Source of the DNA: Blasia pusilla
Lineage: Eukaryota
NCBI GenBank assembly: GCA_050084515.1
Contig: CM114271.1
Coordinates: 39,618,001-39,682,000 of the forward strand
Direction: 5' to 3'
Length of the DNA: 64,000 nucleotides
Both the position numbers and the translations under genes were made by a program. Below are positions 10,081 through 44,878 of the stretch, one piece after another. The notes beneath the pieces were generated by a model. It saw only the letters and a program-made list of their open reading frames with translations, was not told where the DNA came from and ran no database searches. Within the stretch, counting starts at the first letter, position 1; each line of letters starts with the position of its first letter.

Positions 10081-12119
10081 CTTACATCCGACTTGTAAAC
10101 AATAGATCCTTGACCATAACCTCTCGCCTCCAAAACTCTCCATTCTTGCTCCTCCTCCCAACTTTTAGAGAATCCTCTCCTCACTTTTCAACTAGTTTAT
10201 TTCTATCGTGGAGCAAGGTTGCATATGGAAAAAGTTTGTGTCCGAGAACATGACCATGTCTATAGACTTACGTCCTTACTACAACTTGGAAGGACTTGTC
10301 AATGTGCCCTCCATCTTCCCCATCTCCCTCATCCCTCCTATTTGCCTTCGTGATCCGCACTTTATCGTTTCTTTCTCGTCCCACTTCTACTCCCTTTCCC
10401 CTTATTACCCCGCCCACCTACTTGCTCTTGCCTTCCACCATGGACTATAAGTGTGGGCCCTACTTTTTAATCCACGTACATGCATATCTCCAAATTTGTC
10501 CATCCATGTTTGTCCTAGGGATGGACTTAAGCTTGTCTGTTTTTGTGTAACCATATCGTGGAGCTAAGTCTTCAAATTTTTGGGTAAGAAGTTTTTTTTA
10601 TAATATTGAAGGACATTTAGATGAGTGAGGTTTATATTACTATGTTATTTTTTTAAATTATTGGTTATAAACTATAAGAAATAACTAATGACTAAAAAAA
10701 AAGAGGAAAGCCATACTTGAGAAAAAATTGGAGTGAACCAAATCCCCTTTTAATAAGGTTTTTACTATCATGTTTTTTAGGATAGATTAGTGAGATCTAA
10801 TAGAGCGCCTTTAGGAGTAGTGGAGGATAGACTGAGGAGGTTGAGGATGACCTACTGAGGCCCCAAGAAACCTGAGGTTTCCCTTCGTTTCGGCTCATTT
10901 GGAGCAATATTGATGAACTTACGATTTTAGGTAAGTACCAGTTTGAGTATATGGTCAACTTTCTATTTTTGGTAAGTGGCTCTTGACCTTCTACATTAGG
11001 TCAAGATCCAAGGAGGTGACTTGGGAGCATAGGTTACCATGGAGAGAGTTTGGGAGAGGAGAGGGATATACCTCAAGGAGAGAGAGTTTAAGAGCTCATT
11101 CTGTCTTTGTTGAACCTCTTGGTATGAGGCGGCGGAGCTATGGTCTTGCTTGCTTTGTGTGTGTAATCCAGACCTCTCATTAGGAAAGTGGGTTTGGTTT
11201 GACATTGAAAGAGACATGTAAGAGTATACACATTTGAGAGCTATGGTGTTGAGAGAGATTGGATCTTATTTTACAAAGAGAGAATGAGTGAGTGAGAGAG
11301 CTTCACGGGGGAGCTCGCTAGCTGCTTGATGTTTGGTGCGGTTTGGGGGACCATGTTCCCCGCTTCATGGCTCATGGGAGTGCTCACCGGAGCAAGAGCC
11401 GTGCGAGTTTACTGTTTTACTTTGCTGATTTTTTTTGTACGGGAGAGTGGCACGCGGAAGCGCTGCCCAATTTTTGATAGGAATTGAGTATGGGGGCGGA
11501 TTGCTCCATGCAAGTGCTCTCTAGAGCACCATGTAGCTTGCTGATTTTTTTTCTCACACGTTTTACATTTATGTTGTCAAAAATCACCGCGAAAGCGTTG
11601 CTAAATTTTGTGTAGGATAAAGAGACATTGGGCTTTACAACAATACCCGTCAATTTTATTAGAATGTCCGATTCAAAATATTTTTGATATTGTTGTAGAT
11701 CGTGAAGTTGTGCACGATGTGCAATAGACGGTGCACAATTTTCAGTTGTGAGCAAATAATTATGATCAATCTTGCAAAACTGCCATTACTAGGCAATTTT
11801 TAGGGTTAAATTGTTCAAACCCCTAAACCAGCCGCCGCGCATGCGGTGGTCGTCGCCGTCACAGTCACCATCAACGGTCTGCCATCAATAATCAACCATC
11901 ATTGTCAAGAGTCACCATCAATGATCCATCGTCCACCGCCCATCGTTGGCTTCCGTCACCGTCTAGCGCTGCTCGGAGCCGCGTACGACCGTTGTCCACC
12001 TCACATTCGACCGAAGGCGTTGATCCGAGCTCGGCATTGTTATTTGGGATATTGAGTGCGCGTGTTTAGTTTTAGTGATTGAGGGATTACTTGCGAGATT
12101 GAGAATGATCGTGTGAGAG

Positions 12120-14700
12120 GGGCACGAGGGCCATCACGACGTCCTTTTGGCATTTTGAGAGGCGAGGTAGTGGACCTAAGAGTAGCTATGGAGGGTTTAC
12201 CCGGAGTGGTGCGAGGTTTCGAGGATCTCCACATGAGAGACCACCTTGATCTCCTTGTATGTCATCTTCAGATGAGGGGGAGCGTGTAGAGGAGTGTGTT
12301 AGTGATCCACGGTACACATTGAGTGGTCCTACTAGTTGGGCGTACGAGATGGACGATCGGGGAAGAGGACCGCGTTGATTTTTGGATATTGTAGGTACCA
12401 TAGAGCTACACGACTTTATTGTGCTGAGTTTAGGAGTTGGTGTGACTCACAACAGGCTAGGAAATCGAGAGATTTCAACCTATTTACAACATGGAATGAT
12501 ATGTTCCAACATTTAGAGGGGGCACCGTGGACGATTATCATGAGTTCTCCCACACATATACCCAAGAGATTGAGACATGGCGACTCTACTATGACCCACA
12601 CTATGTGTCATGGATGGAGCCGTTCGTAGATGAGGAGGAGGAGGTCAAGAGAGGCTACTTTCTCTTCCACAAGTGATGTTTTAGGAGGGGTCACTCGCAT
12701 TGGGCAGTTGCACTGTCTAGTCGGGTTTGTCCCAGGTTCAACCCCATGGTTGAGTTCTTTGTTGAGTTGAGGGCAAGCTACCAAGGGGTACGGATGGAGA
12801 AATTATGGAGCATCCACGAATTCTAGAGGCGCCTGGATGGGAGTTTGCGTAAGGCTTACACTCGCTTGCCGGTTGATCAACGTCACTCAAGGGATGATAA
12901 AAGCTCAGGCTATCCCGTCATGGTACGCAATGCTGGACTAGACCGTACGGACATGGGTGCGAGAGGGAGTGATTCTTATGAACACCTCCCCTATGTTGAT
13001 AGATGTTTTTAGGACCACCGAGAATATTGACCGCAACATGGCGGAGGAGACCGTATCCACCATGGATTCTGGGCGAGAGTAGTCATGATTGTCAGCACCA
13101 CTAGTGCACCAACGTGGACTCTGAGATAGGTCGACTGTGACACCACGAGCTCGGGGAGGATATCGGGAGGTTGTGCCATCGAGACCTGCGCCTTCATATG
13201 TGGCTCAGCGGCAACCACCTACGATTACTTGTTAGTCATGTGGTGCAGCCCATCATCAACGTGATTGCACTCGTGAGGGTCATGCACATGTGCCTCATCA
13301 TGGAGGAGGAGATGGTGCTACATCAAGAGGTTATCAGTGTGTGTCGCAACTCTCATAACCAAAGAACACCAAATAGGCGCAAAGCGGAACATTAGAACTC
13401 AAGTGGACTCATGCGTTGCGATGTTCGCGCTAAAGAGAGGCGTTTGGAAAGGTCTATTGGAAAATTCCAAGAGATGAAAGGTAGAATAGAGTTGTGATTT
13501 TCATGCATTAGTGGTTGCCACCAGGAAACCTAGACCAAACGTAAGCCAAGACTTGAGATGAGTCGAGTCTTGGAAGATTGGTTGCCAAAGAGGTGAGAAC
13601 CAATTTTGGAACACGATTAGCGTTTGGGGAATTTGACCATGTTTTGGAACATAAATTTTAGCCCAAAGATGTGTTCAAGACAAGTAAAGAGTTGAAAGCT
13701 TATCTTGAGACGCTTCCAACGCACTAAAGATCTCAGCAAACGCATAAGTACAGACTGAGATATTGGCCGGAAACGACTATGAGAGCAATCGGGTTGAGGG
13801 CCAATTGGAGAGGCCCGGGTTTCTTTCCCTAAATGTAGGGAACCCCGGAGATCCCCATAAGTACTAGTAAGGGAGGTGTCTCTCCAAGATGGCTTGGAAC
13901 ACGAATCCCCACTTTGAGCACCAAACGGCGTCTTAGAGGCATGAGATGGAACGAGAGTTTGGCGTTGGAACTTGAGACCCAAACATGATCCAAGGGAGTG
14001 GACTTTGTACGCCACACTTGGATTCCAACCCAAGATTCACTTTGTGCGAGTTTCGGTAAGGTACTCATTGGATGTCCATCAAACAGTTGGAACCGCCATA
14101 CGCGAAACGCTGTTTGAGGTTCTTGAACCGACCAGAAAGTCTGTCCCAAGTCTTTCGAGACTTGCCCGTGTTGTAAACCGCGAAACTAGGAAGGTTGAGC
14201 CTGATGAGAGACCGAGACGAGAACTCGGAAAGTTAGCCCACTGATTGATCCAAGACTCGACTAACCAAAGTGTGTGTTTGGATGCAGATCTGCATTGAGA
14301 GCGTGAACTATTGAACACACGCTTCCGCAACAACAAGATTAACGTTCAAGGAGAGTATGCGCACGATAGTGTGACTACTGTTACAGGTATGGTCACACCA
14401 TGCGCCACGTCTTTCAGTTTATACCGTGAGTTATATCTGGACCAAGGGCCATAGAGGGCACCGGAGCGAGTAGCCGGTCTGGGTGGGCCTAGAGATCGTG
14501 CACTAGGTGGTCTCGTTGGGGGACGAGGAGTTGGAGGTACCCAACAAGGTGGTGGAGCTGCTCGTGGAGGAGGTAGAGTCCCACCACCTACACGCGTCAA
14601 GGGAGATGCCGGACGTGAGGCTAGATGAGTGCTCAGATATAGCAGCTACATAAGCATATTGCCGCTATGGCATTGAGGTTACCCGATGCCGGATCCCTGG
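12120..14700 (+). pseudogene. Gag of element A (interrupted by solo LTR)
   Basis: AEFRSWCDSQQARKSRDFNLFTTWNDMFQHLEGAP is collinear with copy B Gag. The zinc knuckle is split by an insertion at 13342. Confidence 0.75.
13342..14368. mobile_element. Solo LTR (1027 bp) inserted in Gag of element A
   Basis: TGTCGC...GCACGATA termini; 5-bp TSD GTGTG (13337-13341 / 14369-14373). Copy B is uninterrupted at the same site (CAGTGTGACT at about 26551). Confidence 0.85.
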
Positions 14701-15247
14701 CATCGACATCATATGGAGCAGCCAAAGATATGGAGGATCCAAGTTGGATATGCGGGGTTGCCCAGATGGAGGCCGCTGCAGTTGTGACACCTGGAGTAGC
14801 CGTAGAGTTGGATCCACAACGAGGGGAAGCTAGGGAGCAGACCTGACTTCTTCAGTTGTTCATGTTGTGCGAGGCGATGAGGATCCCATCAATGGATCAT
14901 GATAAGAGTTCCCTGAGAGTTGGTGATGTTATTGGTTGGTAGGCACAGGAGGCAATGGGAGAAATGAGTGCGACAACTCCTATTGATGATGCTCAGGAGG
15001 AGCATGTGTTGAGTACAATGTTGGGGGCAGCCACGATGGTGTACCATGGTCTGCTATTTTCTGCTTCCGATGTTATGACATTGGGAGGTACGCCCGCCGA
15101 GGTGTGAGTGTGAGTTGGAGTTCCTGCATCATGTTCAAAGGTGATTGCAAAGGAGGTGATGGACCTGCCCTTGGAGCGGATGCTCGGGCCGTCCACGTCA
15201 GATTCATGGCAGTCTGCTATTGCTAGGATGGCGGAGATGCCCATGCC

Positions 15248-15679
15248 ATGATAGACCGTGCCATGGCTTCTCTTGGTGTTGTGTTGTTGGATAATCAGGG
15301 AGAGGTCTTCCAGTTGGTGAGTCCCAGAGGTAGAGCTTATAGTCCACAACACGTCTTGTTGGATTCAAAAACGCAACCGCTGATGTTGTGGAAAGCGTCA
15401 TTTAGAGGATTGGGCTTGACGAGAGCCAATGTGGAGCATTGTCCATTCCAGATACAGACATCCTTGGCTGGAGCAAGTACCACACAGTATATCACCCGAC
15501 AAGCGGTCGTGGTGAGGATTTTCCTGGGACATCCTACAAATGAGTCCGTGGTGCGAGCCAAGACGATAGTGACTGATGCAGAGTCCTGCCACGTCTTGGT
15601 TGGTGGAGCAGTGTTACATCCGATGGGATTTTCCGTGGATTATTGGGAGGAGTCAGTGTCCTACAGACCAGGATGGTAG
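15248..15679 (+). pseudogene. Retroviral-type aspartic protease of element A
   Basis: VLLDSKTQPLM (copy B reads LLD*GAQPLM, giving a DSG catalytic motif) ... CHVLVGGAVL. Confidence 0.75.
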
Positions 15680-16025: not shown

Positions 16026-17069
16026 ATGATCCCATTGGACACCACCGCGATTGTGTGGTGCATCCCAGAGAAGGGTATTCGGGTGTTGGATCTCTTTTGA
16101 GGGATCAACACTGGGTTAGCTGTTGTTTTGCAGGTTGGAGTGCGCGTGTAGTTGCACCTGTATGTGGAGATTGATGATGTTGCAAGGCGCACTTCACTTC
16201 ACCATGTGGCGCAATTACGTCTATGTTTTCCCGACTTGTTGTCTGCGTCCGCCATTCAGGATTACTAGAATTCTCTACCAAGGGACATTTCATTGTTGGG
16301 GTCGTAGGACTTGGAGCACGTAGGGACCATAGACTTGGTCATTGCTGGTTGGCCATGTCTAGGCAAGTCGAGTGCTGGACGGGATAGCGGATTAGCTGAC
16401 ACTCGGTCCATGTTGTTTTGGGAGATGGTGCGGATCTTGTGACACTTGCAGGAGCATCAGTCTCGTCCTCGAGCATACATTGTGGAGGATGCACTGATTT
16501 TGGGCGATTCAAGGTCCCGTGTGATGACAAGTGCACATCAGGTGCGCGCATGGATTGGCTTGGACCATCGAGTTTGCTGGATGCGACGAGTGTGGATTCA
16601 CAAGGACATCACCCATGTCTTTGGTGGACCAACTTGGTACCACACAAGGTGTTGCGGAGGGCATATGCGAGAGAGGAGTGCCCCTTCGATTTGTTGGTGG
16701 ATTCTATATTGGACCCGGGCCATCGATCAGAGGCAGTGAGGCTAGATGATCGACCACCGTTGACTGTGGTCAACTGGATTGGCATGCCACAGGGCAGCCT
16801 TTCCCACATTGGTGAGTTTTCTCGCTTCCTATGCATTCAAGGAGGCCGGACTTGGCTTGGTTTGGGATGACTGGGTATATAGGTTGGTGGAGCCCAACCC
16901 CGATGAGCGAGAGCAAGCAATGGGATTCCCCACAAGAGTAACGGAAATATCGTTACTATCAGAGGCATCACGATGTCTTGTATTGGGTCACGCGATGGAC
17001 CTCAACTGCTTGACATGGATTTTCAGCTTAGGAGTAGCTGAGCAACGTCGTCGTTTGAGGATGCGATAG
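16026..17069 (+). pseudogene. DNMT3-like C5 cytosine DNA methyltransferase domain within the Gypsy polyprotein
   Basis: Manual translation: IRVLDLF*GINTGL (motif I, 16077), YVEID (II), DLVIAGWPCLG (IV, PC at 16353-16358), YIVEDA (VI, ~ENV), LLDATSV..GHHPCLWWTNL (VIII), EREQAMGFP (IX), RCLVLGHAM (X). Confidence 0.9.
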
Positions 17070-17371
17070 ATCACAGTAGTTGCGTTGGTGCACCCCATGC
17101 TTACCGAGAAGGTTGAGGCAATGGCTGGGGGCGAAACCAGAGGAGATCGACACACCAAGGATGATCGGGAGAGACACCCTTAGACTTCTTGGGATGTTTT
17201 TCATGTACGCCAGGAGAGGGTAGCCACAACATCGAGGTGGTTCTGGATACTGCATGTGGAGATCCAATTTTGCAGTTGGCTGTAGGGGAGCAATCAAGTT
17301 TTGTTGTGTGAGACGGGGTTGCACCATAGCAACCACTGACACCCGCGTCAAAGAGTCCTACTATAATCACG

Positions 17372-18400
17372 ATGGAGACTTGGGAGCCAGATATGGGCCC
17401 TAAGTTGACAAGAGGAGAGCGGCAGTGGATACACCTATTCCTTAGGAGTTATAAGAGGTTTTTTGCATCTAGTATGCATGATTTGGGTACGCAGAAGGGT
17501 CTAGGGATCCGCATTGAGTTGTCGAGTGACACACCGATCTTCCGACAATCTTAAAGATACAGTGACATGGAGAGGGATTTGATTCAGAGTAGGAGCCAGG
17601 ACTTGGTTGGAGCAGGACTAGTGGAAATGTCGCATGGAGAGTATGCATCTGCCACTGTCATGCCCGCCAAGAAGGATGTCCATGGCAACTGGACGGATAG
17701 GCGTATGTGTGGAGATTAACGATATGTCAATTGGCAGACAAAGTCCGATAGGTATGCCATGCCCACTCCAAAGGAGATCCTTGATGCTATTGGGCATGCA
17801 AAGGTCTTCAGTTTGTTAGATCTTCGAGCCGGATACAATCAGCTACCTATCACATTGGAGCACAAGGAGAAGACCGTATTTTGGGGCAACAATCCTCACA
17901 GGAAGGTTTGCTTGTACCAGTGGCGGTTCTTACCATTTGGGTTAAAGAGCACCCCGGATAAGTTTCAGAAGGTCATGGATAGGATCTTGGCAGGTCTGGA
18001 TTTTGTAAGGTGTTATATTGATGACATCATAGTCTTTAGTGCCACGGTTGAGGAGCATCTAGAGGAGGTGTTTCGACGATTGCAATGACAAGGGTTGAAG
18101 CTACATCCAGGCAAGTGCAAGTTCTTCTATGACTAGATTGAGTACCTAGGTCATACGATATACCCAGGGGGCCTTGGTGTGCAGGAGACAAAGGTAGAGG
18201 CTATTTCATGCATTCCACGTCTTAGAGATGTAAGTCGAGTTCGTGCATTCATGAGATTGGCAAACTTCTATCGACGGTACGTCAAGGATTTCAGCTCGAT
18301 TGCAAAGCGGCTAACCTTACTGACCAAGGTGGATAAGGAGTGACACTAGGGGGATGAGTAGGAGAGAGCATTTCAGCTGCTCAAGGGCACATTGACGTCC
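17372..18400 (+). pseudogene. Reverse transcriptase of element A
   Basis: FSLLDLRAGYNQL, LPFGLKS, CYIDDIIVFS (YIDD at 18014-18025), LHPGKCKF. Confidence 0.92.
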
Positions 18401-18419
18401 GCGCCCATATTGAGGAGAC

Positions 18420-18830
18420 CGATCAGGGGGTCTTTTCCAGTTGCATACCGATTGGAGCATGTTGGGGCTTGGAGTTGTGCTCATCGAGCATAACGATGAT
18501 GGTAGAGAGTTCGTGGTGGCTTACGCTAGTCGCTTGAACAACGTTGCAAAGACAAAGTATAGCTTGTATGAGGGTGAGTGTTTGGTTGTAGTGTGGGCTG
18601 TCGCACATTTCAGATGTTATCTATTCGGAAATCCCTTTACCATCTTTATTGATCATCAACCATTTAAGTGGTTGATGGAGTCCGACAAGGTTATAGGGAA
18701 GCTTACGAGGTGGGCTCTTTTGTTGCAAAAGTATGACTTCCAAGTAGTGTATAGACCTAGGATGCTCAACCAAGATGCAAATGGTTTGAGTTGTAACCCA
18801 TGCTCGAGTCAGCGAGATGCGACTGGAGCT
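18420..18830 (+). pseudogene. RNase H of element A
   Basis: LHTDWSMLGLGVVL...VVAYASR...YSLYEGECLVVVWAV.HFRCYL...DHQPFKW...RWALLLQ...DANGLS. Confidence 0.9.
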
Positions 18831-18925: not shown

Positions 18926-20435
18926 TTGATGGCGAGGTCTGATGGAGAGTCCTTAGATCCAGAGGCCGATGAGGAGACGATAGGTGGCCGAGAAATTCAC
19001 AACGATGGAGTGGTCTTGGAGTACCTACGTACAGGCAGCGTCGCGAGTATAGTGGGTGCTAGAGAGCGGGATTGGATCCTACAGCGAGCCAAACGGTTCC
19101 GGTGGAAGGGGACACATGTGTTGCAAGTGTGGGAGGATGGTAGAGTGCATGTAGTGCCTCATCCTTTGCATAGAGCACGTTTGGAGCGTCATGCCCATGA
19201 GGAATTGGATCATTTTGGAGTGAAGCGGATGTACAACTTGCTCCAATTTCAGTATTGGTGGCAAGGCATGCAGACCGACGTTCAACAATTTGTTGCTAGG
19301 TGCATGGTGTGTGATCGAGTCTGAGCATCGTTCAATGCTCTGACTCCATAATTACATCCTCTTTCGATCATGGGTTTTGGTTATAGATGGAGTTTGGATT
19401 TTGCATGACCTTTGCCTTTGACGGAGCACCATAGTCGTTATGTGTTGATGATGGTCGAGCACTTCTCGAACTGGATAGAGTTGGTTGCATTGCTTGACAA
19501 AGCGAGTGAGGGAGTAGCGTATGCCTTCCAAGATCGAGTGCTGAGTCATTACGGTGCACCAACTGAGGTGTTGACAGACCAAGATACAGAGTTCCGCGGG
19601 GAGTTTCAGACCTTGTATGATGACGCACTGATCAACCACCGCACTACTTCGCAAGATCATCCTGAGGCAGATGGACCAGCGGAGCGGGTTGTGCAGACAA
19701 TGAAGAGAGGACTATGTAAGTATGGCTTGCGGAGAGGTCGCCTAGGAGATTGGGACCTCCAGTTGCCGTGGTTGGCGATGCGATACAAATTCAGCAAGCA
19801 AGCATCCTTAGCGTCTTTCTCACCATACTTGCTTTTGTATGGCCGAGAGCCAGATTTACCTACAGCCATTCGTCGAGATGTTGGTGAGGTGTTGAACCTT
19901 AATGACCATGATTTATGGATGCAAGCATGTTCTCGAGATGGCTGAATTGTTTGGGAGAGTGATGCCCATGGCATTTGAGAAATTGGTGATTACGCGACAT
20001 CGGGATACATTGAGGTATGCGACTATTTTGGGGGGTGATTATCGACCTACTATCCAAAGGTTTCATCAGGGAGACTATGTCTACTTGCAGTTGACGGTAC
20101 CCACAATGTTGGATGTGATTGTAGGGCGGATTATCTTGAGAGTGCATGAGGTTCTGCCATCAAGTGTTGTCTTATTGGAGGGCCGAGATGGTATGGTTTG
20201 GAAGGACCATGTGCGTTATTGTGCACCGTGTCACCTTTCAAATATTGACGATACAATCGATCTGAGCTTAGCAGTAGTTCTTGCAGGCTTGCGATATATT
20301 TTGTGTGGTTCTACCCGTGGTGCAGCCACTATGCTAGTTCGTGATGGATGTTCGAGAGGATGGCATATGGCATGCTTGACGCCACCTCTCATTAGGGTTC
20401 CTCAGGGACGATGGATGTGTCCCGAATGTACATAG
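18926..20435 (+). pseudogene. Integrase (HHCC zinc finger + DDE core) with C-terminal PHD finger, element A
   Basis: HEELDHFG...CMVC; SLDFA.PLP, LTDQDTEF, HPEADGPAER; C-terminal ILCGS...DGCSRGWHMACLTPPL...WMCPEC. Confidence 0.9.
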
Positions 20436-21949
20436 AGTATGTAATTCTACATTCCAACTTGGGTCTGTGACATGGATGACAAGAAGGCGACAAATGATGG
20501 GGCCACATGAGCACACGACCTTCTTGCTCTTAGCGTCTGAGAGATGTATGTTACGGTAGGTAGGGATAGATGGCTATCTGGAGTTAGAGGGACCTAACCA
20601 CCAGCTAGGGGGCGATTGGAGATATTTTGGTACTTCTAGTCTCATTGTTTGGATGCCATGAGTTAGCATGGGATTGTCCGTGTTTGTGTGTGTGTTCGGT
20701 GAGAGTGATGTATATTGTGTAGCGATGTGTATGCGCACGACATTACAGACAAAAAGTGAGTTTGAACTAAGTGAAAGAGGAGTAGGAAACAAATACTTTG
20801 CAAGTGCAAAAATCCACTACTTTACGAATCCTTTACAAGTGTAGAAACCCACTACTTGGACTCTCATTTTTATGAATATTTTTCAAGTGAGCAGTGATTT
20901 AAATTTGTAATTTTTTATGATTGCTCAAATTGACAAATACCTACAAGTGACTCCCAGAGTTGCACAAAATTTCAAGTTGTTTATGAGCACCTTGCAAGCC
21001 TTTTGCAAATGAATTACAACTAAACCACAAGTATAAAAAATTGAAACTTCAAGCCACTAGCAATTTGCAAGGCCAATTACTAACATACCTTTGCCAGCTT
21101 ATGAGGCGTAGTAGCCGTATTATAGTTGCAGAAGACTTGCAACTTTGTGAGTCTTACACTTGCATTATTGAGAATTTGACAGAAGAATTCCAACTACAAT
21201 GCAATATAAAAAGTTTCGTTTTCTTACATTTGCAAATTAGTCATAGTTTAATCGCAAAATAACATATCAAAGTAGTGGTTTTTTCACTCACAAAGTAGCT
21301 AGTTGTTGCTCCATTTTCAGTAAGTTTTGACTACCTTTTAGGTCTATAAAACACCTTTTAATGTTGGATGTGGCTCCTTCCAAAAAATTTCCCTGGGATT
21401 TTTGTTTTTCTCCTTCATTTATTATAATTTGAAATAATAATTTTGGTAGAAAGAATTGTGATACTGTGAACTTCACTCATCTACATGTTCTTCAACATCC
21501 AAAAAAGTTCCTACCTAAAGAAATCTCAAGACTTAACTCCACTATAGGAACAAAAAAATTACAATGTGAGGAGAGGAGTCTCAAAAAGTTAGGAGGAAAA
21601 GAAAAAACGAAGCCATTTGGAGGCAAAGGGTAATTTATGACCAAGGTTTTAATTTGGTTATGGGACTCACAAATGACTATTTGCAAGTTTTGACTCCAAT
21701 ATGAGCCTCCATAATCATAGTTTGCGAGTCTCAAAAGCCATAATCTAGGAATTTGAATGGAAATCATGTTTTTGATTTTCCCTAGTTACAAGAAAAAAGG
21801 ATTGTCCAAATACTCAAACCAGAGGCAATCCACAAAGCTATATAGAGCCATAACGCAATCATAATACTATGAATTGGAAAAATTACAATCGCAATGGACT
21901 TGAAAATTAGCCACTCTTGACCAAAGTAGACTTGCAATGGAGGTGTGTC

Positions 21950-22800: not shown

Positions 22801-25338
22801 TGTTCTTGATTAAGCAAGCCAACTCTCTTCTTTGTATATGTGTGTATGAGAATGAAAATGGCGTTGGATTAGTATTTTCTGCATAAGAAGTCAATCGACC
22901 AATTGGGAATACCTTATAAACTATTAATTATCTTAGTCTCATTTCATGTAAGGAAGGTGAAAGTTGGAATCTACCTTCTAAATTGAGAATATTATTTGGA
23001 CTTGCAAGAGTTTCATTAAATGACATCTGGATGTGGATAAAAAAGATTTATTTCCACAACACAAGCAACTATAAACTAATAGCTCTACACTTGTGACCTT
23101 AATGAGATTAGTAACAAAGTATGTGAAGAATATCAATTCCTATGGATGATTGGGTTGATTTGGTGTAAGGATTGGGGTTGTGAATGTTCTTTACATAACC
23201 TAGTTCCAATTATTCTTCCTTGCTTAAACTTTGACTTATTCATTATCCAGTCTATTACGTCTTTTAGGATGGATCAGTGACATCTAGTAGAACACCTTCT
23301 TGAGTAGTGTAGGACAAGCTCAGTAGGTTGAGGATGACCTACTGAGGCCCCGGGAAACCCGAGAAAGCATGTTTCCCCTTCGTTTTGGCTCATTTGGAGT
23401 CATATTAAGAAACTTACTATTTTAGGCAAGTACCATTTTGAGTATATGATCGACTTTTTGTTTTTGGTAATTAGCCCTTGAACTCCTACTTCAGGTCAAG
23501 AGCCAAGGAGATGACTTGGGAGAAAAGGTTACCATGGAGAGAGTTTGGGAGAGGAGCGGGGTATACCTTAAGGAGAGAGAGCTTGAGAGCTCATTCTCTC
23601 TTTGTTGAACCTCTTGGCATGAGGCGGCGGAGTTATGGTCCCTTGCCTTGTGAGTGTAACCCAAGCCCCTCATTAGGAGAGTGGGTTGGGTTTGACATGA
23701 GAGAGAGTGCACACCTTTGAGAGCTATGGTGTGAGATGGTGTAGAGAGAGATTGGATCTTACTTTAGAAAGAGAGAAAGAGAGAATGAGAGAGTGAGAGA
23801 GCTTCATGGGGGAGCTCGCTGGTCACTCGCTGTTTTTGTAGGTTGGGTACCGTGTTCCCCATTCAGCGGCTCATGGGAGTGCTCACCGGAGTAAGGGTTG
23901 CTTTGATTGTTCTTTGCATTTGCCGATTTTTCATGTGGAAGAGTGGCGCGCGGAAGCGCTATCCAATTTTTGATAGGGATTGAGTATGGGGGTGGATTGC
24001 CCCATGATGGTGCTCTCAAGAGCACCATGTAGCTTGTTGATTTGTATTTTTATAGATTTTACATTTTTTTGGGAGAAATCAGCGCGGAAGCGCTGCCAAA
24101 TTTTGTGTAGGAGAAAGAGACATTGGGCTTTAGGACAATCCTTGTCAATTTTTACAGGAATATCCAATTCTAAATATTTTTAATACTATTGTAGATCGTG
24201 AAGCTATGCACATTGTGCAACAAACAATGTGCAATTTAGAGTTATGAGCAAAAAGTTATGGTCAATCTTGCAAAACTGCCATTGCAAGGATATTTTTAGG
24301 GTTAAATTGTTCAAACCCTAAACCAGCCGCCACCGTCATCGCCAATGGTCCGCCGTCGACGGTCAACCATCACCATCAATGATCAACCATCACCATAAAT
24401 GTTCAACCATCACCGTAAATGGTCCACCGTCCGTTGTCCACCCTTTGGTTGCCATTGCCGCCATTACGGAGTGGAGGATCTTCCACGACGTTTGTTGATT
24501 CTCTGACTTGCGTCGCCATCACGTACTTTGTTTTGGCTACCACCGTCATCACAGTTTTGTCATCAACTAGTGATGGCACCTGACATCAGGTTATGGTATT
24601 TGAGTTTTGATTTCATGCTACTATGTTGTGATTGGTAGCCGCTCGACGACGACGGAGTACCATACTGTGACGCCCGTAGCCGCGACGCGCCGCTGATTGC
24701 CGCGTTGTGCCGCTTGTGGCCACACCGCACTGTCTAGATCGCGGAGCCGCACCGTCATTATGGAGCAGAGTGTGGGTTTATTGTTGATTAAGGAGGGTAT
24801 ACCGCCGAGTATTGCATCCCACCATCAAGGGCCGTGCCGTTCGTAGTCGTTCCGTGCCGCGTGCAACGCCGCACCGTTTTGCTGGAACCGCAGTCTATCG
24901 AGGAGTTTTGAGCAGCGTCAGTACGGGAGGAGTATGACTTGCTGATTGGGGGAGTTGACTCCATGAACGAGTTGGGATTGAGAGTTGCACTTTCTGAGGA
25001 GCGACATCGAGATGTGTGAAGGTTACCCATTCTGGTCCTTTACCCTACACGCGTGAGGGATTCTGGCATTTGGGTAGTTTATTTGGGGATATTGGGTTGT
25101 ATGGATGCTGAGAACATCATTTATGTATGTGTTTTAGGGGACATAGACTTGTGTGGGATGTCCAGAGTTGAGAGTAGGTTGTCGATGAGATGATAGTCTG
25201 GTCAATTTGCCGCACCACGCCGCTTGTTACCGCACGTTACACGTCTCGGGGAGGGAGAGTGTAGATCGAGTGCCGCATGTTTGGGATGAGTGATTCAGGG
25301 ATTACTTGCAAGGTTGAGAGTGATCATGTGAGAGGGGC

Positions 25339-28190
25339 ATGAGGGCCATCACGGCGTCCTTTCAGGATTTTGAGAGGCGAGGTAGTGGAATTGAGAGTAG
25401 CTCTGGAGGGTTTACCCGGAGTGGTGCGAGGTTTCGAGGGTCTCCACGTGAGAGACCACCTCGATCTCCTTCTATGTCGTCTTCAGACAAGGGAGAGCAT
25501 GTAGAGGAGTGTGTTAGTGATCCACGGTACAGATTGAGTGATCCTACCAGTTAGGCGTACGAGATGCACGACCGGGGTAGAGGACCGCGTGGGTTTTCGG
25601 ATGCTATAGGCACCATAGAGCTACACGACTTCATTGCGGAGTTTAGGAGTTGGTGTGACTCACAGTGGTCTAGGAACTCTAGAGAGTTCAACCCGTTTAC
25701 AACATGGAATGGTATGTTCCAGCATTTAGAGGGGGCACCCATGGACGATTACCATGAGTTCTCCCATAGATATGCCCAGGAGATTGAGGCATGGCGACTC
25801 TACTATGACCCACACTATGTGTCATGGATGGAGCCGTTCGTAGATGAGGAGGAGGAGTCATGAGAGGCTACTTCCTCTTCCACTAGTGATGTTTTAGGAG
25901 GGGTCACTCGCACGGGAGCAGTTGCATCGTCTAGTCGGGTTCGTCCCTGGTTCAACCTTGTGGTTGAGTTCTTTGCTGAGTTGAGGGCGAGCTACCAGAG
26001 GGTACGGACGGAGAAGTTGCGGAGCATCCACGACTTCCAGAGGCGCCAAGGTGAGAGTTTGCGTTAGGCTTACACTTGCTTGCGCCGGTTGATCAACGTC
26101 ACTCAGGGGGTGATAGAGGCTCAAGCTATCCAATCATGGTATGCGATGCTGGATCGGACCCTGCAGATATGGGTGCGGGAGGGGGTGCTTCTTATGAACA
26201 CCTCCCCTACGTTGAGAGATGTTTTTAGGACCATCGAGAACATTGAGCGCAACATGGCGGAGGAGAGCGTAGCCACCATGGGTTCTGGGCGAGAGCAGTC
26301 GCGATTGTCTACACCACCTGTGCAGCAACGTGGACTCCGAGATAGGTCAACTGTGGCACCACGAGCTCAGGGAGGATACCGAGAGGCTGTGCCACAGAGA
26401 CCTGCGCCTTCATATACGGCTCAGCAGCAACCACCTACTATTACTTGTTGGTCACGTGGTGGAGCTCATCATCAACGCGATTGCAGTCGTCAGGGTCATG
26501 GACGTGTGCCTCAGCATGGAGGAGGAGATGGTGCTACACCAAGAAGTTATCAGTGTGACTATTGTCAGAGGTATGGTCATACACGCGCCAGGTGTTTCAA
26601 TTTACATCATGAGTTACGTCCGGACCGAGGGCTAGAGAGGGCACGAGAGCGAGTAGCCGGTCTGAGTGGGCCTAGAGATCGTACACCAGGTGGTCCCGTT
26701 GGGGGATGAGGAGTTGGAGTTGCCCGACAGGGTGGTGAAGCTGCCCGTGGAGGAGGTAGAGTACCACCACCTAGACGCGCAACGGAAGATGCCGGAGGTG
26801 AGGTTGGGATGGCTGCTCAGATACAGCAGCTATAGGAGCATATTTCCGCTATGGCATTGAGATTACCCGATGTCGGATCCGTGGCATCGACATCATATGG
26901 AGAAACCAGAGATCTGGAGGATCTTGGTTGGATGTGCGAGGTTGCCCATATGGAGGTAGCCGCAGTTGTGATGCGTGGAGCAGCTGTAGAGTTGGATCCA
27001 CAGCGAGGGGAAGCCAGAAAATAGACTAGGCTTCCTCAATCTTTCACGTTGTCTGAAGCGATGAGGATCCCATCGATGGGTCCTCATCAAAGTTCCTGGA
27101 GAGTTGGTGATGTTGTTGGTGTGTAGGCACGGAGGGCGATGGGAGAAGCGAGTGCGACGACTCCTATTGTTGATGCTCAAGAGGGGCATGTGTCGAGCAC
27201 GTTGTTGGGGGCGGCCACCGTTATGTACCGCACTCCTTTATTTTTTTCTTTCGATGTTATGACGTTGGGGGGTACGTCCACCGAGGCTTTTCGGCTGGCC
27301 GCTTCACTATGTGAGCGCGGAGTTGGAGTTTGTGCATCACGTTCAGAGGTGATTTCAAAGGAGGTGATGGACCTGCCCTTGGAGCGGATGCTCGGGCCGT
27401 CCACGTCAGATTCATGGCAGGCTGCGGCTACTAGGATGGCGGAGATGCCCGCTAGACCCGCGATAGAGCGTACCATGGCTTCTCCTGGTGTTGTTGCTTG
27501 ATAACCAAGGAGAGGTCTTTGAGTTGGTGAGTCTCGGAGGTAGAGATTTAAGTTCGCAACACGTCTTGTTGGATTGAGGAGCGCAACCCTTGATGTTGAG
27601 GAAAGCGTCATTCAGAGGATTGGACTTGACAAGAGCCGATGTGGAGCGTTATCCATTCCGAAGACAGACATCCTTGGGTGGAGCGAGTACCACATAATAT
27701 ATCACCCGACAACAGGTCGTGATGAGGATTCGCCTGGGACGTCCTACAGATGAGTCCGTGGTGCGAGCCAAGGCGATAGTGACTAATGCAGAGTCCTACG
27801 ACGTCTTGGTTGGTGGAGCAGTGTTATATCCGATGGGGTTTTCCCTGGATTACTGGGAGGAGTCAACGTCCTACAGACCAGGATGGCAGTAAGGTGATGG
27901 GCGCCTTAGCTCAACATCCGTTTGATTCACATGTGCAGTGATCGAGCAACGTCCTGGAGAGATGGCGACCTTAGCAGCATTTAGTAGTGCCATCACTTGG
28001 CCTAGTGATTTGATTGAGGGACATGTCCATACAGAGGATACTCCCATTTTTGATATTTCTATGGAGAGGAGTGTTATGGTAGCTGCATCATTCCGTGGAG
28101 GAGAGGTACTGTTGTGGGGCTCGACTGAGGATCTTCGACGATTGGCAGATGAGCACGTGCAGACCGCGTGGAGCGAGGCATTTGCATAAG
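25339..28190 (+). pseudogene. Gag and protease of element B
   Basis: ELHDFIAEFRSWCD...; zinc knuckle CDYCQRYGHTRARC; protease LLD*GAQPLM. Mostly one frame with TAG/TGA stops. Confidence 0.8.
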
Positions 28191-28196
28191 AGCGTT

Positions 28197-31496: not shown

Positions 31497-31498
31497 GT

Positions 31499-35856: not shown

Positions 35857-35895
35857 TCCAAGAAGATTCCTACGAGAGGAGACTGAGAATGAGAA

Positions 35896-42042: not shown

Positions 42043-43313
42043 TGTCATGTCGAGAGTCTTTCTTGAGCAAGGCGGGCCTTCTAGCTGCGGTAGATGCGGT
42101 TGATGCAAGGTGAACTCTCTAATAAGTTCTCCTTTTTCAATACAAAATTATGATGTACACTCTCCATTCTCTCACGACAGGTATCACAAATGGAAGTGCC
42201 GAGGCGATCACTTCTTCGTAACATCGGACCCCAAAATTCCTAACTATAAAATCCCTATAAACTATTTTACGCTTGTACACGAGGAAGATAGCACAACTAG
42301 TGTTAAACCCTACTTGAGCAGGCCTATTGACATCCATGGATCGCTATATAAGGACATACAAAGTACAATCCCATGTCCTTCCATATGTGACAATAGGAAG
42401 AATCACCGGAGTTGGAGATTGCATGACCTGGTTCATGAACGCCTCCCCAAAGTGATAAACTAAATAGCGAGTGAACCAGTACCTATCTACAAAGAGTACC
42501 TTGACATGGTAAGGATTGAGGAAAGGAAAGTCGGGCACAGCTCATGCTCCACCCCTATCCATGCTTGACACATATTCTCTACTCTCCTCAAGAATGGGTT
42601 TTGGCGGAGTTATTCTCCCAAGAGGGGTAATCCACTCTCATTGGGGAAGTAACAAGCCAAAACTTCCGCTATTTTAGTATGACTAAACTCCTCTACGGTG
42701 ACAAACCTCTCATCCCCACACACACACACCACACTCTAGAAATCTCTCAAAGAATAGACCATGGTCAAGTTACTCTCCCAAGAGGGGTGATCCACTCTCA
42801 TTGGAAGAGCAAGCAATCCCAAAGCCATACACTCAAGAGAGACACGAGAGACTCAAGATGTGGAATAGAAGGTGATGAACCCTTGAAGGTCCCTCCTCTT
42901 TATATACTCACAAGGGATCCACAAGAGTACGAAATAGAGCTTATCTTATCTTGTGCCACATGGCTTCCTCCCAAGGCTTAGCCAATCACATTTTGACACA
43001 AGTAGATTTCCTCTTATCTCTTCCAAAATATCCTCTTTTACCCACATGATATTTTCCAAATTACCCCAACTAACCTAGCCACCAACCAAGACTACTTTTG
43101 CTTTTCATTAAAGCAACTACTTTACTTTTATAAAGTCATCTTTTATTTATTATCTCCTTTTCCTAAAGTTGGGCCCGCATAAAAGAGGCACCATAAAGAG
43201 GTTTAAACATAAGAATCTCCTTTTTCTAAGCCAATTTACTTAATACTAATGAAACTCTATCTAACACTTAATGACGAAGGAATTTACACAGTGGTTGATT
43301 TTACTATACGACA
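42043..43313 (-). repeat. 5' LTR of element F (1271 bp)
   Basis: TG...CA termini, PBS adjacent; element B integrase resumes at 43314. Confidence 0.88.
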
Positions 43314-43925
43314 CCGTACTTGCTACTTTATGGCCGAGAGCCAGATTTACCAACGGCCATTCGTCGAGATGCTGGTAAGGTGTTGGACCTTGATGACCCA
43401 GATGTATGGATGTGAGCATGTTCTCAAAGGGCTGAGTTGTTTCGGAGAGTGATGCCCATGGCGTTCGAGAACTTGGCGTTTGTGCAACATCGGGATACGT
43501 TGAGGTATGCGACTATTCGGGGTGGTGGTTATCGACCAACTATCTAGAGGTTTCATCAGGGAGATTATGTCTTCTTACAATAGAGGGCATCAACGACGTT
43601 GGATGTGATTGCAGGGCACACTATCCTCTGAGTGCGTGAAGTTTTGCCATCCGATGTTCTCTTGCTGGAGGGACGCGCTGGTCTGGTTTGGAAGGACCAT
43701 GTTCGTTATTGTGTGCCATGTCACCTTCCTAACATTGATGGTACAGTAGATCCGAGCTTAGCAGTAGTTCATGCAGGCTTGCGTTGTATGCTGTGTGGTT
43801 CTGCCCGTGGTGCGGCCACGATGCTAGTCTGTGATGGATGTTCGAGAGGATGGCATATGGCATGTTTGACGCCACCTCTCACTAGGGTTCTTCAAGGACG
43901 ATGGATGTGTCCCAGATGTACATAG
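43314..43925 (+). pseudogene. Integrase C-terminus + intact C4HC3 PHD finger of element B
   Basis: CMLC...CDGC...HMAC...WMCPRC (43785-43922); all eight zinc ligands present. Confidence 0.9.
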
Positions 43926-44105
43926 AGTAGGTAGTTCTACATTCCGACTTGTGTCTGTGAGATGGATGACAAGAAGGCGACTAACGATGGGGCCACATGA
44001 GCACATGGCCTTCTTGCTCTTAGCGTCCGAGAGATGTATGTCATGGTAGGTAGGGATAGATGGCTATATGGAGCTAGAAGGACCTAACCACCAGCTAGGG
44101 GGGCG

Positions 44106-44878
44106 ATTGGAGATATTTTGGTACTTCTTGTCTCATTGTTTGGATGCCATGAGTTAGCATGGGATCGTGCGTGTTTGTGTGTGTGTGTTCCGTGACAACG
44201 ATGTATGTTGTGTAGCGATGTGTATGCGTATGACAACAGTCACATCTTTTAGGATATATCGGTGAGATCTAGTAGAGCACCTTCTTGAGTAGTGTAGGAC
44301 AAGTTGAGTAGGTCGAGGATGATCTGCTGCGGCCCAGGGAAACCTGAGAGAGAATGTTTTCCCTTCGTTTCGGCTCATTTGGAGCCATATTAAGGATCTT
44401 ACTATTTTAGGTAAGTACCATTTTGAATATATGATCGACTTTTAAATTTTGGTAATGAGCCCTTGACCTCCTACATCAGGTCAAGAGCCAAGGAGATGAC
44501 TTGGGAGAATAGATTACTATGGAGAGAGCTTGGGAGAGGAGAGGGGTATACCTCAAGGAGAGAGAGCTTGAGAGCTCATTCTCTCTTTGTTGAACCTCTT
44601 GGCATGAGGCGGCGGAGCTATGGTCCCTTGCCTTGTGAGTGTAACCCAAGCCTCTCATTAGGAGAGTGGTTTGGGTTTGACATGAGAGAGATTGCACACC
44701 TTTGAGAGCTATGGTATGAGATGGTGTAGAGAGATATTGGATCTTACTTTATTGGAGATATTTTGGTACTTCTTGTCTCGTTGTTTGGATGCCATAAGTT
44801 AGCATGGGATCGTGCGTGTTTGTGTGTATATCCGTTGACAACGATGTATGTTGTGTAGCGATGTGTATGCGCACGACA
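44106..44878 (+). repeat. 3' terminal Y-X-Y repeat block of element B
   Basis: Y1 44106-44235, X2 44238-44750 (copy of 23253-23765 and 10766-11272), Y2 44751-44878 (copy of 20615-20742). Confidence 0.88.

What the first reader, a model, noticed from the sequence alone, without database searches (positions are those of the whole stretch)
16026..17069. DNMT3-like cytosine methyltransferase embedded in a land-plant Gypsy polyprotein
Seen: between protease (15248-15679) and RT (from 17372), reading through stops gives IRVLDLF*GINTGLAVVLQVGVRV*LHLYVEIDD...DISLLGS*DLEHVGTIDLVIAGWPCLGKSSAG..GLADTRSMLFWEMVRIL...YIVEDA...GPSSLLDATSV..GHHPCLWWTNL...EREQAMGFP..T.ISLLSEASRCLVLGHAM. Knowledge: these match C5-MTase motifs I, II, IV (catalytic PC), VI, VIII, IX and X in linear order, and closely parallel the DNMT3 catalytic domain (IRVLSLFDGIATG; DLVIGGSPC; HRARYFWGNL; ERVFGFP; RQRLLG). 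The order is not circularly permuted like plant DRM. DNMT-bearing retrotransposons have been reported in dinoflagellates and a charophyte alga; I do not recall a description in land plants, but could not check. Inference: the ancestral element encoded its own de novo methyltransferase, possibly to methylate its cDNA or new insertions. This copy is inactivated.
Basis: partly seen in the sequence, partly recalled or inferred. Interest (0 to 1): 0.92.

Follow-up and report, generated by a model that had tools for sequence, protein, structure and literature searches.

The report
Retrotransposon-borne DNMT3 methylase in land plant
This is a decayed copy of a jumping gene that carries its own DNA-methylating enzyme, a kind described so far from algae, and the same family turns out to be abundant and transcribed in this plant genome and present in liverworts and peat mosses.

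Summary
Window 16026-17069, read through 5 stops and 2 frame breaks, is a complete C5 cytosine methyltransferase domain. It scores 37 bits against Pfam PF00145 (cut-off 22). It aligns over 345 residues at 55-59% identity with liverwort proteins. Its nearest solved relatives are DNMT3A/3B, and its motifs are not permuted.

The domain lies between protease and reverse transcriptase of a Ty3/Gypsy-type element (about 10765-20742) that ends in an integrase with a PHD finger.

It is not a one-off capture. Genomic reads of the same species cover the DNMT part about 1,300-2,200 deep, against about 2 for single copy. Stranded RNA reads cover it too. Relatives with the same gene order occur in Marchantia, Riccia, Calypogeia, Sphagnum and Closterium. 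A sister form (RT-RH-DNMT-INT-PHD) occurs in chlorophytes.

The element has the unusual A-coding-B-A-B repeats reported for KnitGypsy-Dnmt3 of Klebsormidium.

A conserved in-frame stop separates gag-PR-DNMT from RT-RH-INT-PHD, which suggests read-through.

This copy is dead. Enzyme activity is not shown for any member.

It is a new member of a known kind. I found no description in land plants, and one paper states such elements are absent there.

The parts
10765..11273 (+). 5' terminal repeat 'A' (A1) of element copy 1
   Evidence: BLASTN to 23252-24432 (79%) and to 44247-44751 (81%); 81.5% to A1 of copy 2
12361..14894 (+). gag region of copy 1, decayed. It is interrupted by about 1.06 kb (13341-14400) that copy 2 lacks, as do the genomic reads that skip it or diverge at 13341
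   Evidence: tblastn of Marchantia P0004 residues 8-497; copy 2 lacks the insert; 44 genomic reads skip 13341->14402 and 1237 reads run on differently behind 13341
15227..15679 (+). aspartic protease; the active-site triplet reads D-S-K here where relative L006 has D-S-G
   Evidence: BLASTP to P0016 residues 773-907, its Pfam Asp_protease_2 stretch, E 1e-07; L006 translation
16026..17069 (+). DNMT3-type C5 cytosine methyltransferase domain, pseudogenised: 5 in-frame stops and 2 frame breaks (near 16559 and 16795)
   Evidence: Pfam PF00145 at 37 bits; PDB best DNMT3A; 59% identity over 345 residues to Calypogeia P0172; keeps 23 of 26 columns that are invariant in 9 relatives
17327..17329 (+). 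conserved in-frame stop (TAG followed by CAACC) between the gag-PR-DNMT frame and the RT frame; candidate read-through site
   Evidence: Same site in 6 of 6 DNA sequences looked at (window, L001-L004, L006), 5 TAG and 1 TAA; in L002 the frame is open on both sides; 19 of 151 proteins end 67-72 residues after the DNMT end
17420..18421 (+). reverse transcriptase (Pfam RVT_1 at 17732-18160), decayed
   Evidence: Pfam E 3e-21; tblastn P0016 at 39% and P0168 at 59%
18435..18800 (+). RNase H
   Evidence: Pfam RT_RNaseH E 2.5e-28; tblastn
19085..19930 (+). DDE integrase (zinc-binding H2C2 at 19172-19321, rve core at 19382-19660)
   Evidence: Pfam E 2.5e-13 for H2C2; rve E 8.8e-07 at 29.6 bits, below its 32.6 cut-off; tblastn P0016 at 45% over 282 residues
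20301..20429 (+). PHD finger at the C-terminal end of the integrase
   Evidence: Pfam PF00628 E 1.7e-06, 28.4 bits, cut-off 24; 35% identity over 169 residues to the integrase-PHD end of type-B relative P0020, E 1e-31
20615..20742 (+). short repeat 'B' (B1) of copy 1; the copy is cut off here and has no A2-B2
   Evidence: 90% to 44751-44878 and 92% to 44080-44235; 2905 genomic reads run on behind 20742 with sequence that is not in the window at this place
23252..28192 (+). copy 2 of the same family, 5' part (A1 at 23257-23766, gag, protease). It breaks off at the point that corresponds to 15982 of copy 1, just before the DNMT
   Evidence: BLASTN 79-88% to 10765-15982; tblastn P0004 residues 4-813
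43312..44879 (+). copy 2, 3' part: integrase end, then B1 (44106-44236), A2 (44242-44751), B2 (44751-44879). Together with A1 this gives the order A-coding-B-A-B
   Evidence: BLASTN 87% to 19821-20742; A1/A2 92.0% over 510 nt and B1/B2 92.4% over 132 nt

Best explanation
Window 16026-17069 is the dead remnant of a DNMT3-type C5 cytosine methyltransferase domain. The domain is a regular part of a lineage of Ty3/Gypsy-type retrotransposons of streptophytes, the kind first described as KnitGypsy-Dnmt3 in Klebsormidium. Shown here: the coding order gag-PR-DNMT | stop | RT-RNaseH-integrase-PHD; terminal repeats in the order A-coding-B-A-B; high copy number and strand-biased transcription of the family in this genome; and near-universal retention of the catalytic residues across the family. 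Inferred, at roughly 0.6: the main translation product is Gag-PR-DNMT, and RT-RH-INT-PHD is made only when a conserved leaky stop is read through. The methyltransferase would then be made in the same amount as Gag. Inferred, at roughly 0.35, following de Mendoza et al. 2018: the enzyme methylates the element's own reverse-transcribed DNA or the fresh insertion, while the PHD finger on the integrase reads histone tails and steers integration. This copy has lost the function and shows a GC-to-AT decay bias typical of methylated repeats. The confidence given is for the identity and anatomy, not for the inferred mechanism.
For: Domain identity: Pfam PF00145 at 37 bits against a cut-off of 22. The profile of 14 relatives scores DNMT3A 100 bits, DRM 51-65, HhaI 40. 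The model of P0219 (pLDDT 78.9) is nearest to DNMT3A/B/C. Family feature: with about 1 in 100 of a WGS run of the same species label, at 80% likeness or more, depth (both mate columns summed) over the three DNMT bins 16114-17016 is 1748, 1328 and 2218. Gag bins give 1340-1712, PR bins 2251-2414, and the 11 RT-INT-PHD bins 2324-3089. Only 114 of 154,645 laid reads are 99% alike or more, about 1.9x, so the DNMT part stands for roughly 10^3 copy equivalents. Three RNA runs lay 5759, 6233 and 6111 reads. Depth over the DNMT bins is 25-67 on one mate orientation against 0.2-3.9 on the other. Same order elsewhere: the window is colinear with Marchantia P0004 (gag-PR-DNMT) and P0168 (PR-DNMT-RT-RH). 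15 of 43 hits are Marchantia polymorpha proteins; others are from Calypogeia and Sphagnum. Riccia, M. paleacea and two more Sphagnum species appear, and Closterium. 15 of 22 long metagenome loci have DNMT before RT. Catalytic Cys and Glu are kept in 156 of 161 full-length domains. Repeats: A-coding-B-A-B in copy 2 and in L006, L010 and L021. This is the arrangement de Mendoza et al. give for KnitGypsy-Dnmt3 (passages). Stop. Decay bias: places where the window has A or T and at least 20% of reads have G or C number 643; the reverse number 295.
Against: No enzymatic activity is shown for any member. In the only published test the KnitGypsy-Dnmt3 domain gave no methylation in yeast, which the authors call inconclusive (section 10 read). 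This copy has a stop in motif I and altered residues in motifs IV, VI and VIII. Mean DNMT depth is 0.65 of the RT-INT-PHD depth. Part of the family, or related families, may lack the domain, or the domain may simply be more diverged. Copy 2 in the window lacks the DNMT-to-integrase stretch, so it is uninformative. No host DNMT3, DNMT1, CMT or Klebsormidium sequence was in my trees. 'DNMT3-type' therefore rests on profile and fold ranking, not on a rooted phylogeny. Land-plant status rests on the NDX gene and the bryophyte relatives. The sense orientation of the RNA assumes the usual dUTP-type library. Read-through is inferred from conservation and context only.
Confidence: 0.85

Rival explanations
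1. One-off capture: a fragment of the host's DNMT3 gene was inserted or transduced into this single element copy.
For: The second copy in the window has no DNMT.
Against: Copy 2 lacks the whole stretch from the protease end to the integrase, not only the DNMT, and holds nested foreign sequence there. Genomic reads cover the DNMT part 1328-2218 deep against about 1.9 for single copy. The same order PR-DNMT-RT is found in Marchantia, Sphagnum, Closterium and 15 of 22 long metagenome loci. There is no intron, poly-A or target duplication around the domain, and it is colinear with relatives without a gap.
Confidence: 0.01
2. The domain belongs to the family but does not methylate DNA. It might methylate the element's RNA (as DNMT2 acts on tRNA), or serve only as a DNA- or chromatin-binding or assembly module.
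For: No activity in yeast for the Klebsormidium domain. De Mendoza et al. raise RNA methylation for LINE-borne DNMTs (section 11 read). Placement in the Gag-PR frame would put it beside the RNA in the particle.
Against: The catalytic Cys and Glu, the motif I glycines and the target-recognition-side motifs are kept as in DNA enzymes. The nearest sequences and folds are DNMT3A/B (100 bits), not DNMT2 (37 bits). SymbioDIRS-Dnmt3 domains do methylate CG DNA in yeast.
Confidence: 0.15
3. The open gag-PR-DNMT frames of bryophytes are domesticated host genes and no longer mobile elements. The window shows a fossil of their ancestor.
For: Marchantia gene models of 1150-1330 residues hold gag-PR-DNMT only and carry gene names. 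UniRef names some of them DNA (cytosine-5-)-methyltransferase.
Against: There are many paralogues: 15 Marchantia proteins and 7 more rows, at 72-100% identity. That fits a repeat family, not a gene. The frames end at the same stop that is followed in frame by RT in the DNA loci. Roughly 10^3 copy equivalents with terminal repeats occur in this genome.
Confidence: 0.04

Closest known systems
KnitGypsy-Dnmt3 of Klebsormidium nitens (de Mendoza et al. 2018, PMC5890265; passages and sections 10-11 read)
   Same: A non-permuted DNMT3-type domain inside the coding region of a Gypsy-type element with a DDE integrase. Terminal repeats in the DIRS-like order A-coding-B-A-B. The host is a streptophyte. 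Catalytic residues are conserved across copies.
   Different: The hosts here are land plants (bryophytes) and Closterium. Copy number is about 10^3 equivalents, whereas K. nitens is said to have few copies. I could not compare sequences, the place of the domain in pol, the PHD finger or the stop codon, because no K. nitens sequence came up in my searches and the figure and supplements were not available.
SymbioDIRS-Dnmt3 of Symbiodinium (same paper)
   Same: A DNMT3-type domain in a retrotransposon with A-coding-B-A-B repeats. Two domain orders coexist, as types A and B do here.
   Different: Those elements use a tyrosine recombinase and belong to DIRS. Here Pfam finds the integrase zinc-binding domain and the rve core and no tyrosine recombinase.
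Host DNMT3A/3B (animals) and plant DNMT3 and DRM2
   Same: Same catalytic fold and motif order as DNMT3A/B. DRM2 is the next-nearest solved relative.
   Different: No PWWP or ADD domain lies next to the catalytic domain. It has no introns and sits in a Gag-PR frame. Unlike DRM it is not circularly permuted. About 20% identity to human DNMT3A/B in the structural alignment.
Chromoviruses (Gypsy elements with a chromodomain after the integrase; recalled from the field, listing seen)
   Same: A histone-tail reader module is fused to the C-terminal end of the integrase.
Type-B relatives in chlorophytes (Scenedesmus sp. PABB004 'pol', Chromochloris, Monoraphidium) and metagenomes
   Same: Same DNMT family and the same integrase-PHD end.
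   Different: The DNMT lies between RNase H and integrase. These DNMTs form one side of a branch (SH-aLRT 99 on 52 chosen rows; FastTree 99 on 132 rows). No A-B-A-B repeats were seen in the 5 type-B loci examined.

Membership tests
C5 cytosine methyltransferase (Pfam PF00145) | Profile match above the curated cut-off | tested here: met
   37 bits against a cut-off of 22 for 16026-16565; 30.9 bits in the whole-frame scan
C5 cytosine methyltransferase (Pfam PF00145) | Catalytic Cys of motif IV, Glu of motif VI and the AdoMet-binding glycines of motif I (motif names recalled) | tested here: inconclusive
   Family: Cys and Glu both present in 156 of 161 full domains. This copy keeps the Cys and Glu but has a stop inside motif I and altered neighbours in motifs IV, VI and VIII. 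The feature is met for the family and not for this copy.
DNMT3 subfamily | Closest to DNMT3 among solved methyltransferases by sequence profile and by fold | tested here: met
   DNMT3A 100 bits, DNMT3B/3C 95, DRM 51-65, HhaI 40, DNMT2 37; the Foldseek matches listed, ranks 1-49 with gaps, are all DNMT3A/B/C chains
DNMT3 subfamily | Linear motif order I-IV-VI-VIII-IX-X, not the DRM permutation | tested here: met
   Alignments to DNMT3A run in one order; alignment with relatives
DNMT3 subfamily | Placement inside the DNMT3 clade in a phylogeny with DNMT1, CMT, DRM, DNMT5 and bacterial enzymes | not tested
   No host or outgroup sequences could be fetched as stored proteins; all three homologue searches returned element-borne domains
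DNMT3 subfamily | PWWP and/or ADD reader domains N-terminal of the catalytic domain | tested here: not met
   Pfam finds none in the window frames or in P0004, P0016 or P0020; the only reader is a PHD finger after the integrase
Ty3/Gypsy LTR retrotransposon | Order PR-RT-RNaseH-integrase with a DDE (rve) integrase | tested here: met
Ty3/Gypsy LTR retrotransposon | Two identical long terminal repeats, a primer-binding site, a polypurine tract and a target-site duplication | tested here: inconclusive
   The repeats are A-coding-B-A-B, not a simple LTR pair. By eye I recognised no tRNA primer-binding site after A1 and no target duplication at copy 2, whose 5' boundary is blurred.
Gypsy-DNMT3 (KnitGypsy-Dnmt3) | DNMT3-type domain within the coding region of a Gypsy-type element | tested here: met
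Gypsy-DNMT3 (KnitGypsy-Dnmt3) | DIRS-like repeat arrangement A-coding-B-A-B | tested here: met
   Copy 2; L006, L010, L021; the paper's legends
Gypsy-DNMT3 (KnitGypsy-Dnmt3) | Sequence kinship with the K. nitens elements | not tested
   No K. nitens protein appeared among named hits or in the 30 cluster look-ups
DIRS elements | Tyrosine recombinase instead of a DDE integrase | tested here: not met
   Integrase_H2C2 and rve found, no phage-integrase family
Chromoviruses | Chromodomain at the integrase C-terminus | tested here: not met
   PHD finger there instead

The most novel reading that the evidence does not exclude
An old green-lineage clade of Gypsy-type elements with a PHD-tagged integrase carries its own DNMT3. 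Its streptophyte branch places the enzyme at the end of the abundant Gag-PR product, ahead of a leaky stop. That branch is still transcribed, and possibly mobile, in bryophytes, including the model liverwort Marchantia polymorpha. If the enzyme is active, these elements lay down their own methylation on new copies. With roughly a thousand copies per genome, they could add measurably to the host's de novo methylation.
Probability: 0.3. Interest if true: 0.8.

Novelty: new member of a known kind. Interest (0 to 1): 0.6.

Why it matters
Cytosine methylation is the host's main weapon against transposons, so a transposon that brings its own de novo methyltransferase is a paradox. Its purpose has been open since 2018. 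The published cases are in dinoflagellates and one charophyte alga, which are hard to manipulate.

The present data show the family in liverworts and peat mosses, at high copy number and transcribed in this genome. Open gag-PR-DNMT frames are annotated on Marchantia polymorpha chromosomes. Marchantia has gene editing, methylomes and methyltransferase mutants, so the function of a transposon-borne DNMT3 becomes directly testable.

The placement before a conserved stop, and the PHD finger on the integrase, give two concrete mechanistic handles.

Tried and rejected
- Whole-genome search of the window's own assembly: none is held.
- Pfam on the middle and last DNMT pieces alone: no hit at E up to 1. 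Their identity rests on alignment with relatives.
- A second DNMT in the window: none. tblastx of 15900-19900 against the window gave only short weak pieces, and tblastn of three relatives found one DNMT only.
- Pfam on the three plus-strand frames of 27001-36002 (copy 2 and its nested material): no family at all.
- Naming the organism: run labels are coded, and the ESM Atlas gave no usable hit for the NDX exon.
- Index of public runs: no RNA holder listed. The RNA evidence comes from raw reads laid.
- IQ-TREE on 132 rows with the mixture model did not finish in 288 s. It was replaced by FastTree on the same 132 rows and by IQ-TREE quick, LG+G4, on 52 rows that I chose from them. Left out of that tree were P0308 (gappy), P0203 (long branch) and most unknown-architecture and redundant type-B rows.
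- L006 and L021 have no open frame of 250 residues or more, apart from unrelated ones, so they are decayed copies too.
- Target-site duplication and primer-binding site: not recognised by eye.
- I considered and rejected a chromovirus reading (no chromodomain) and a DIRS reading (DDE integrase present).
- Literature: ten searches. None lists a paper that describes such elements in land plants, and Mp8g17980 occurs in no held paper.
- Supplements are closed. Supplementary trees and tables of PMC5890265 and PMC12344493 may already list bryophyte sequences.
Full report
**1. The observation**

The domain runs in frame 0 at 16026-16559, shifts to frame 2 at 16559-16795, and returns to frame 0 at 16794-17066. 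The first piece holds five in-frame stops.

- Of the three pieces, the first hits Pfam PF00145 (E 3.5e-09, 37 bits, cut-off 22). The other two hit nothing at E up to 1.
- Against all PDB sequences the first piece finds DNMT3A first (6.5e-08), then DNMT3B, DRM2 and M.HhaI.
- The read-through with X at every break aligns over 345 residues with intact proteins: 59% identity to Calypogeia fissa P0172 (E 4e-134) and 55% to Marchantia polymorpha P0004.

The whole domain is therefore present and only broken.

**2. The element around it**

Pfam on the three plus-strand frames of 11901-20803 gives:

- DNA_methylase at 16284-16451
- RVT_1 at 17732-18160
- RNase H at 18435-18734
- integrase zinc-binding domain at 19172-19321
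- rve core at 19382-19660 (29.6 bits, below its 32.6 cut-off)
- a PHD finger at 20301-20429

The frame 15227-15679 aligns with the Pfam protease stretch of relative P0016. The window is colinear with Marchantia P0004 over gag, protease and DNMT, and with Marchantia P0168 over protease, DNMT, RT and RNase H.

A second copy of the family lies at 23252-28192 and 43312-44879. It breaks off just before the DNMT and resumes in the integrase end. Between these points lie foreign and nested sequences, among them a third gag fragment at 30330-31391 and another Gypsy element on the minus strand. Copy 2 therefore says nothing about the DNMT.

**3. A family feature, not a one-off**

No genome is held for the window, so I laid public reads of the same species label on 11900-20900 at 80% likeness.

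- From about one hundredth of a WGS run, 154,645 reads were laid. Only 114 of them are 99% alike or more, which is about 1.9-fold coverage of this locus.
- Summed depth is 1748, 1328 and 2218 in the three bins inside the DNMT. It is 1340-1712 over gag, 2251-2414 over protease and 2324-3089 over RT to PHD.
- The DNMT part is thus repeated on the order of a thousand times. That is as often as gag, and 0.65 times as often as RT-INT.
- Three RNA-seq runs laid 5759, 6233 and 6111 reads. There is a ten- to hundred-fold bias to one mate orientation over the whole element, including the DNMT bins (25-67 against 0.2-3.9). In the usual stranded libraries this means sense transcripts.
- Nearly all RNA reads are under 95% alike to this copy (5712 of 5759 in X14). 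Other copies are the ones expressed.
- Places where the window has A or T and at least a fifth of the reads have G or C number 643, against 295 the other way. This is the decay expected of a methylated, deaminating copy.
- One of the two frame breaks of this copy is not shared by most family reads (998 of 1376).

**4. Relatives elsewhere**

- The first homologue search gave one protein, Marchantia Mp_8g17980 (P0004, 1248 residues, 56% identity). It has a zinc knuckle, a protease-like part and an intact DNMT.
- Searching with its DNMT part gave 43 proteins of 686-2184 residues. Fifteen are from M. polymorpha, one from Calypogeia fissa, one from Sphagnum fallax, one each from the chlorophytes Chromochloris and Monoraphidium, and the rest from metagenomes.
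- The same search among shorter proteins gave 516 proteins. The listed 120 include M. paleacea, Riccia sorocarpa, S. troendelagicum and S. jensenii.
- Most of the bryophyte proteins lie on contigs of 1 to 49 Mb (a few Marchantia rows on 0.09-0.9 Mb scaffolds), so they are chromosomal.
- Cluster look-ups named Scenedesmus 'pol' and four Closterium strains.
- The exhaustive search found 1337 proteins at E<=1e-3.

**5. Two architectures**

I located domains with seeds from P0016, P0004 and P0020 in the 216 proteins held at that time.

- 36 have the DNMT after protease or before RT (type A, like the window).
- 82 have it after RNase H or before integrase (type B).
- 96 show the DNMT alone, and 2 have no DNMT.

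On a FastTree of 132 full-length domains the type-B domains fall in one clade (support 99; 66 type B, 21 unknown, no type A), and the architecture changes once. IQ-TREE quick on 52 rows that I chose gives the same split (SH-aLRT 99). It places the window in a clade of nine (100) with Calypogeia, Sphagnum and Marchantia. Closterium forms its own clade (99). Neither tree is rooted and neither has outgroups.

The named type-A hosts are streptophytes and the named type-B hosts are chlorophytes. Both types share the integrase-PHD end: 35% identity over 169 residues, E 1e-31.

**6. DNMT3 type and conservation**

An alignment of 14 diverse domains keeps the Cys-Gln of motif IV, Glu-Asn of motif VI, the arginines of motif VIII and the Glu-Arg-Glu...Gly of the C-terminal motifs.

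- Its profile scores DNMT3A 100 bits, DNMT3B/3C 95, tobacco DRM 65, Arabidopsis DRM2 51, M.HhaI 40 and DNMT2 37. No DNMT1 or CMT chain appears at E<=0.01.
- An AlphaFold model of P0219 (pLDDT 78.9) matches DNMT3A/B/C chains best (E 4e-19, TM 0.78-0.81).
- The catalytic Cys and Glu are both present in 156 of 161 full domains.
- The window copy keeps 23 of 26 columns that are invariant in nine relatives. It has a stop in motif I and changes next to the catalytic residues.

**7. Repeats**

Copy 2 has the order A1 (23257-23766), coding region, B1 (44106-44236), A2 (44242-44751), B2 (44751-44879). A1/A2 are 92.0% alike and B1/B2 92.4% alike.

Copy 1 has A1 and B1 and is then cut off. 2905 genomic reads go on behind 20742, and 1729 have other sequence in front of 20615. 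This fits B being flanked by A in many copies.

Among 22 long metagenome loci:

- Three type-A loci show the full pattern (L006, L010, L021).
- Three show the B pair about 460-490 bases apart (L014, L015, L027).
- One shows an A pair cut by the locus end (L002).
- In L006 the Pfam order between A1 and B1 is DNMT, RVT, RNase H, integrase, PHD.
- None of the five type-B loci shows the pattern.

De Mendoza et al. 2018 describe exactly this 'A-coding region-B-A-B' order for SymbioDIRS-Dnmt3. They say that in KnitGypsy-Dnmt3 the repeats are as in DIRS while the domains are those of Gypsy (legends seen).

**8. A conserved stop**

In the window and in L001-L004 and L006, an in-frame stop (five TAG, one TAA) followed by CAACC lies between the tail of the DNMT frame and the start of the RT frame.

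- In L002 the same frame is open for 449 codons before the stop and 287 after it.
- Nineteen of 151 proteins that contain the DNMT C-end stop 67-72 residues after it. Seventeen of them end in similar peptides, among them four Marchantia, two Calypogeia and one Sphagnum jensenii protein.
- This explains why the Marchantia gene models hold gag-PR-DNMT only.
- The window's context, TAG CAA CCA, matches what I recall as the tobamovirus-type leaky-stop context (CAR YYA). Gag-pol read-through is known from gammaretroviruses (also recalled).

I therefore infer programmed read-through. P0016 and its cluster (2188-2327 residues in one frame) show that not all type-A lineages have the stop.

**9. Host**

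The 3' part of the window holds exons that match Nodulin_N (57839-58297), the NDX homeobox-like domain (60912-61442) and Nodulin_C (61944-62705). I recall NDX as a land-plant homeobox class. No protein over 60% identical to the window's DNMT is in the databases, so the species is none of the named ones. Run labels are coded.

**10. Literature**

Gypsy-DNMT3 is known from Klebsormidium (PMC5890265). Later papers cite it as 'streptophytes (Gypsy-DNMT3)' (PMC12344493 and the 2026 preprint, passages). PMC6338049 states that such transposons are not present in land plants such as tracheophytes. Ten searches found no description in bryophytes. Supplements could not be read.

**11. Verdict**

It is a new member of a known kind, with three additions:

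- occurrence and abundance in land plants
- the gag-PR-DNMT frame ahead of a conserved stop
- a PHD-tagged integrase shared with a chlorophyte sister group

Noticed in passing
window 20301-20429; L006 9923-10069; P0013, P0020: The integrase ends in a PHD finger instead of a chromodomain, in both type-A and type-B elements. P0013 adds a PTM/DIR17-like Tudor domain after it. I found no paper on PHD-tagged Gypsy integrases in one search.
   Followed up: partly
window 17327-17329; L001 1470, L002 11192, L003 2686, L004 4245, L006 6940: A conserved in-frame stop followed by CAACC lies between the DNMT tail and RT, a candidate programmed read-through site. The DNMT would then be made in Gag amounts.
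   Followed up: partly
window 23257-23766 and 44106-44879; L006, L010, L021: Split direct repeats A-coding-B-A-B occur in elements that have a DDE integrase. How such ends are made and integrated is unexplained. The A and B pairs of copy 2 have the same divergence (92.0% and 92.4%).
   Followed up: partly
window 13341-14400: About 1.06 kb inside the gag of copy 1 is absent from copy 2 and from the genomic reads that skip it or diverge at 13341, yet it is itself repeated (depth 944-1568). RNA of the opposite mate orientation peaks at 13706-14006 (46-76 against 9-20), with sharp loose ends near 13822 and 13953. This is probably another small transcribed repeat.
   Followed up: no
window 28192-43312: Copy 2 has lost its DNMT-to-integrase part and holds nested material. 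This includes a related gag fragment (30330-31391) and, on the minus strand, a different Gypsy element with an open 615-residue RNase H-integrase frame (36205-38052), a DUF4100-like part and an open 299-residue frame (41219-42118).
   Followed up: partly
window 57839-62705: A multi-exon NDX (nodulin homeobox) gene on the plus strand (Nodulin_N, HTH_NDX, Nodulin_C). It is the only host gene I recognised in the window.
   Followed up: partly
window 17494-18555, 17610-17919, 18243-18278, 18713-18808: Joints seen in RNA reads only, or nearly only (one DNA read at 17610-17919): 2-10 reads per run skip 1060, 308, 34 and 94 bases. They may be spliced or internally deleted family transcripts.
   Followed up: no
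proteins P0122, P0215, P0121, P0201 and 5 metagenome loci (L019, L020, L022, L024, L026): A sister group in chlorophytes and many metagenomes has the order RT-RH-DNMT-INT-PHD. Some predicted proteins reach 3200-4177 residues.
   Followed up: partly
window 54473-54812: Two adjacent direct copies of about 154 bases at 86% identity.
   Followed up: no
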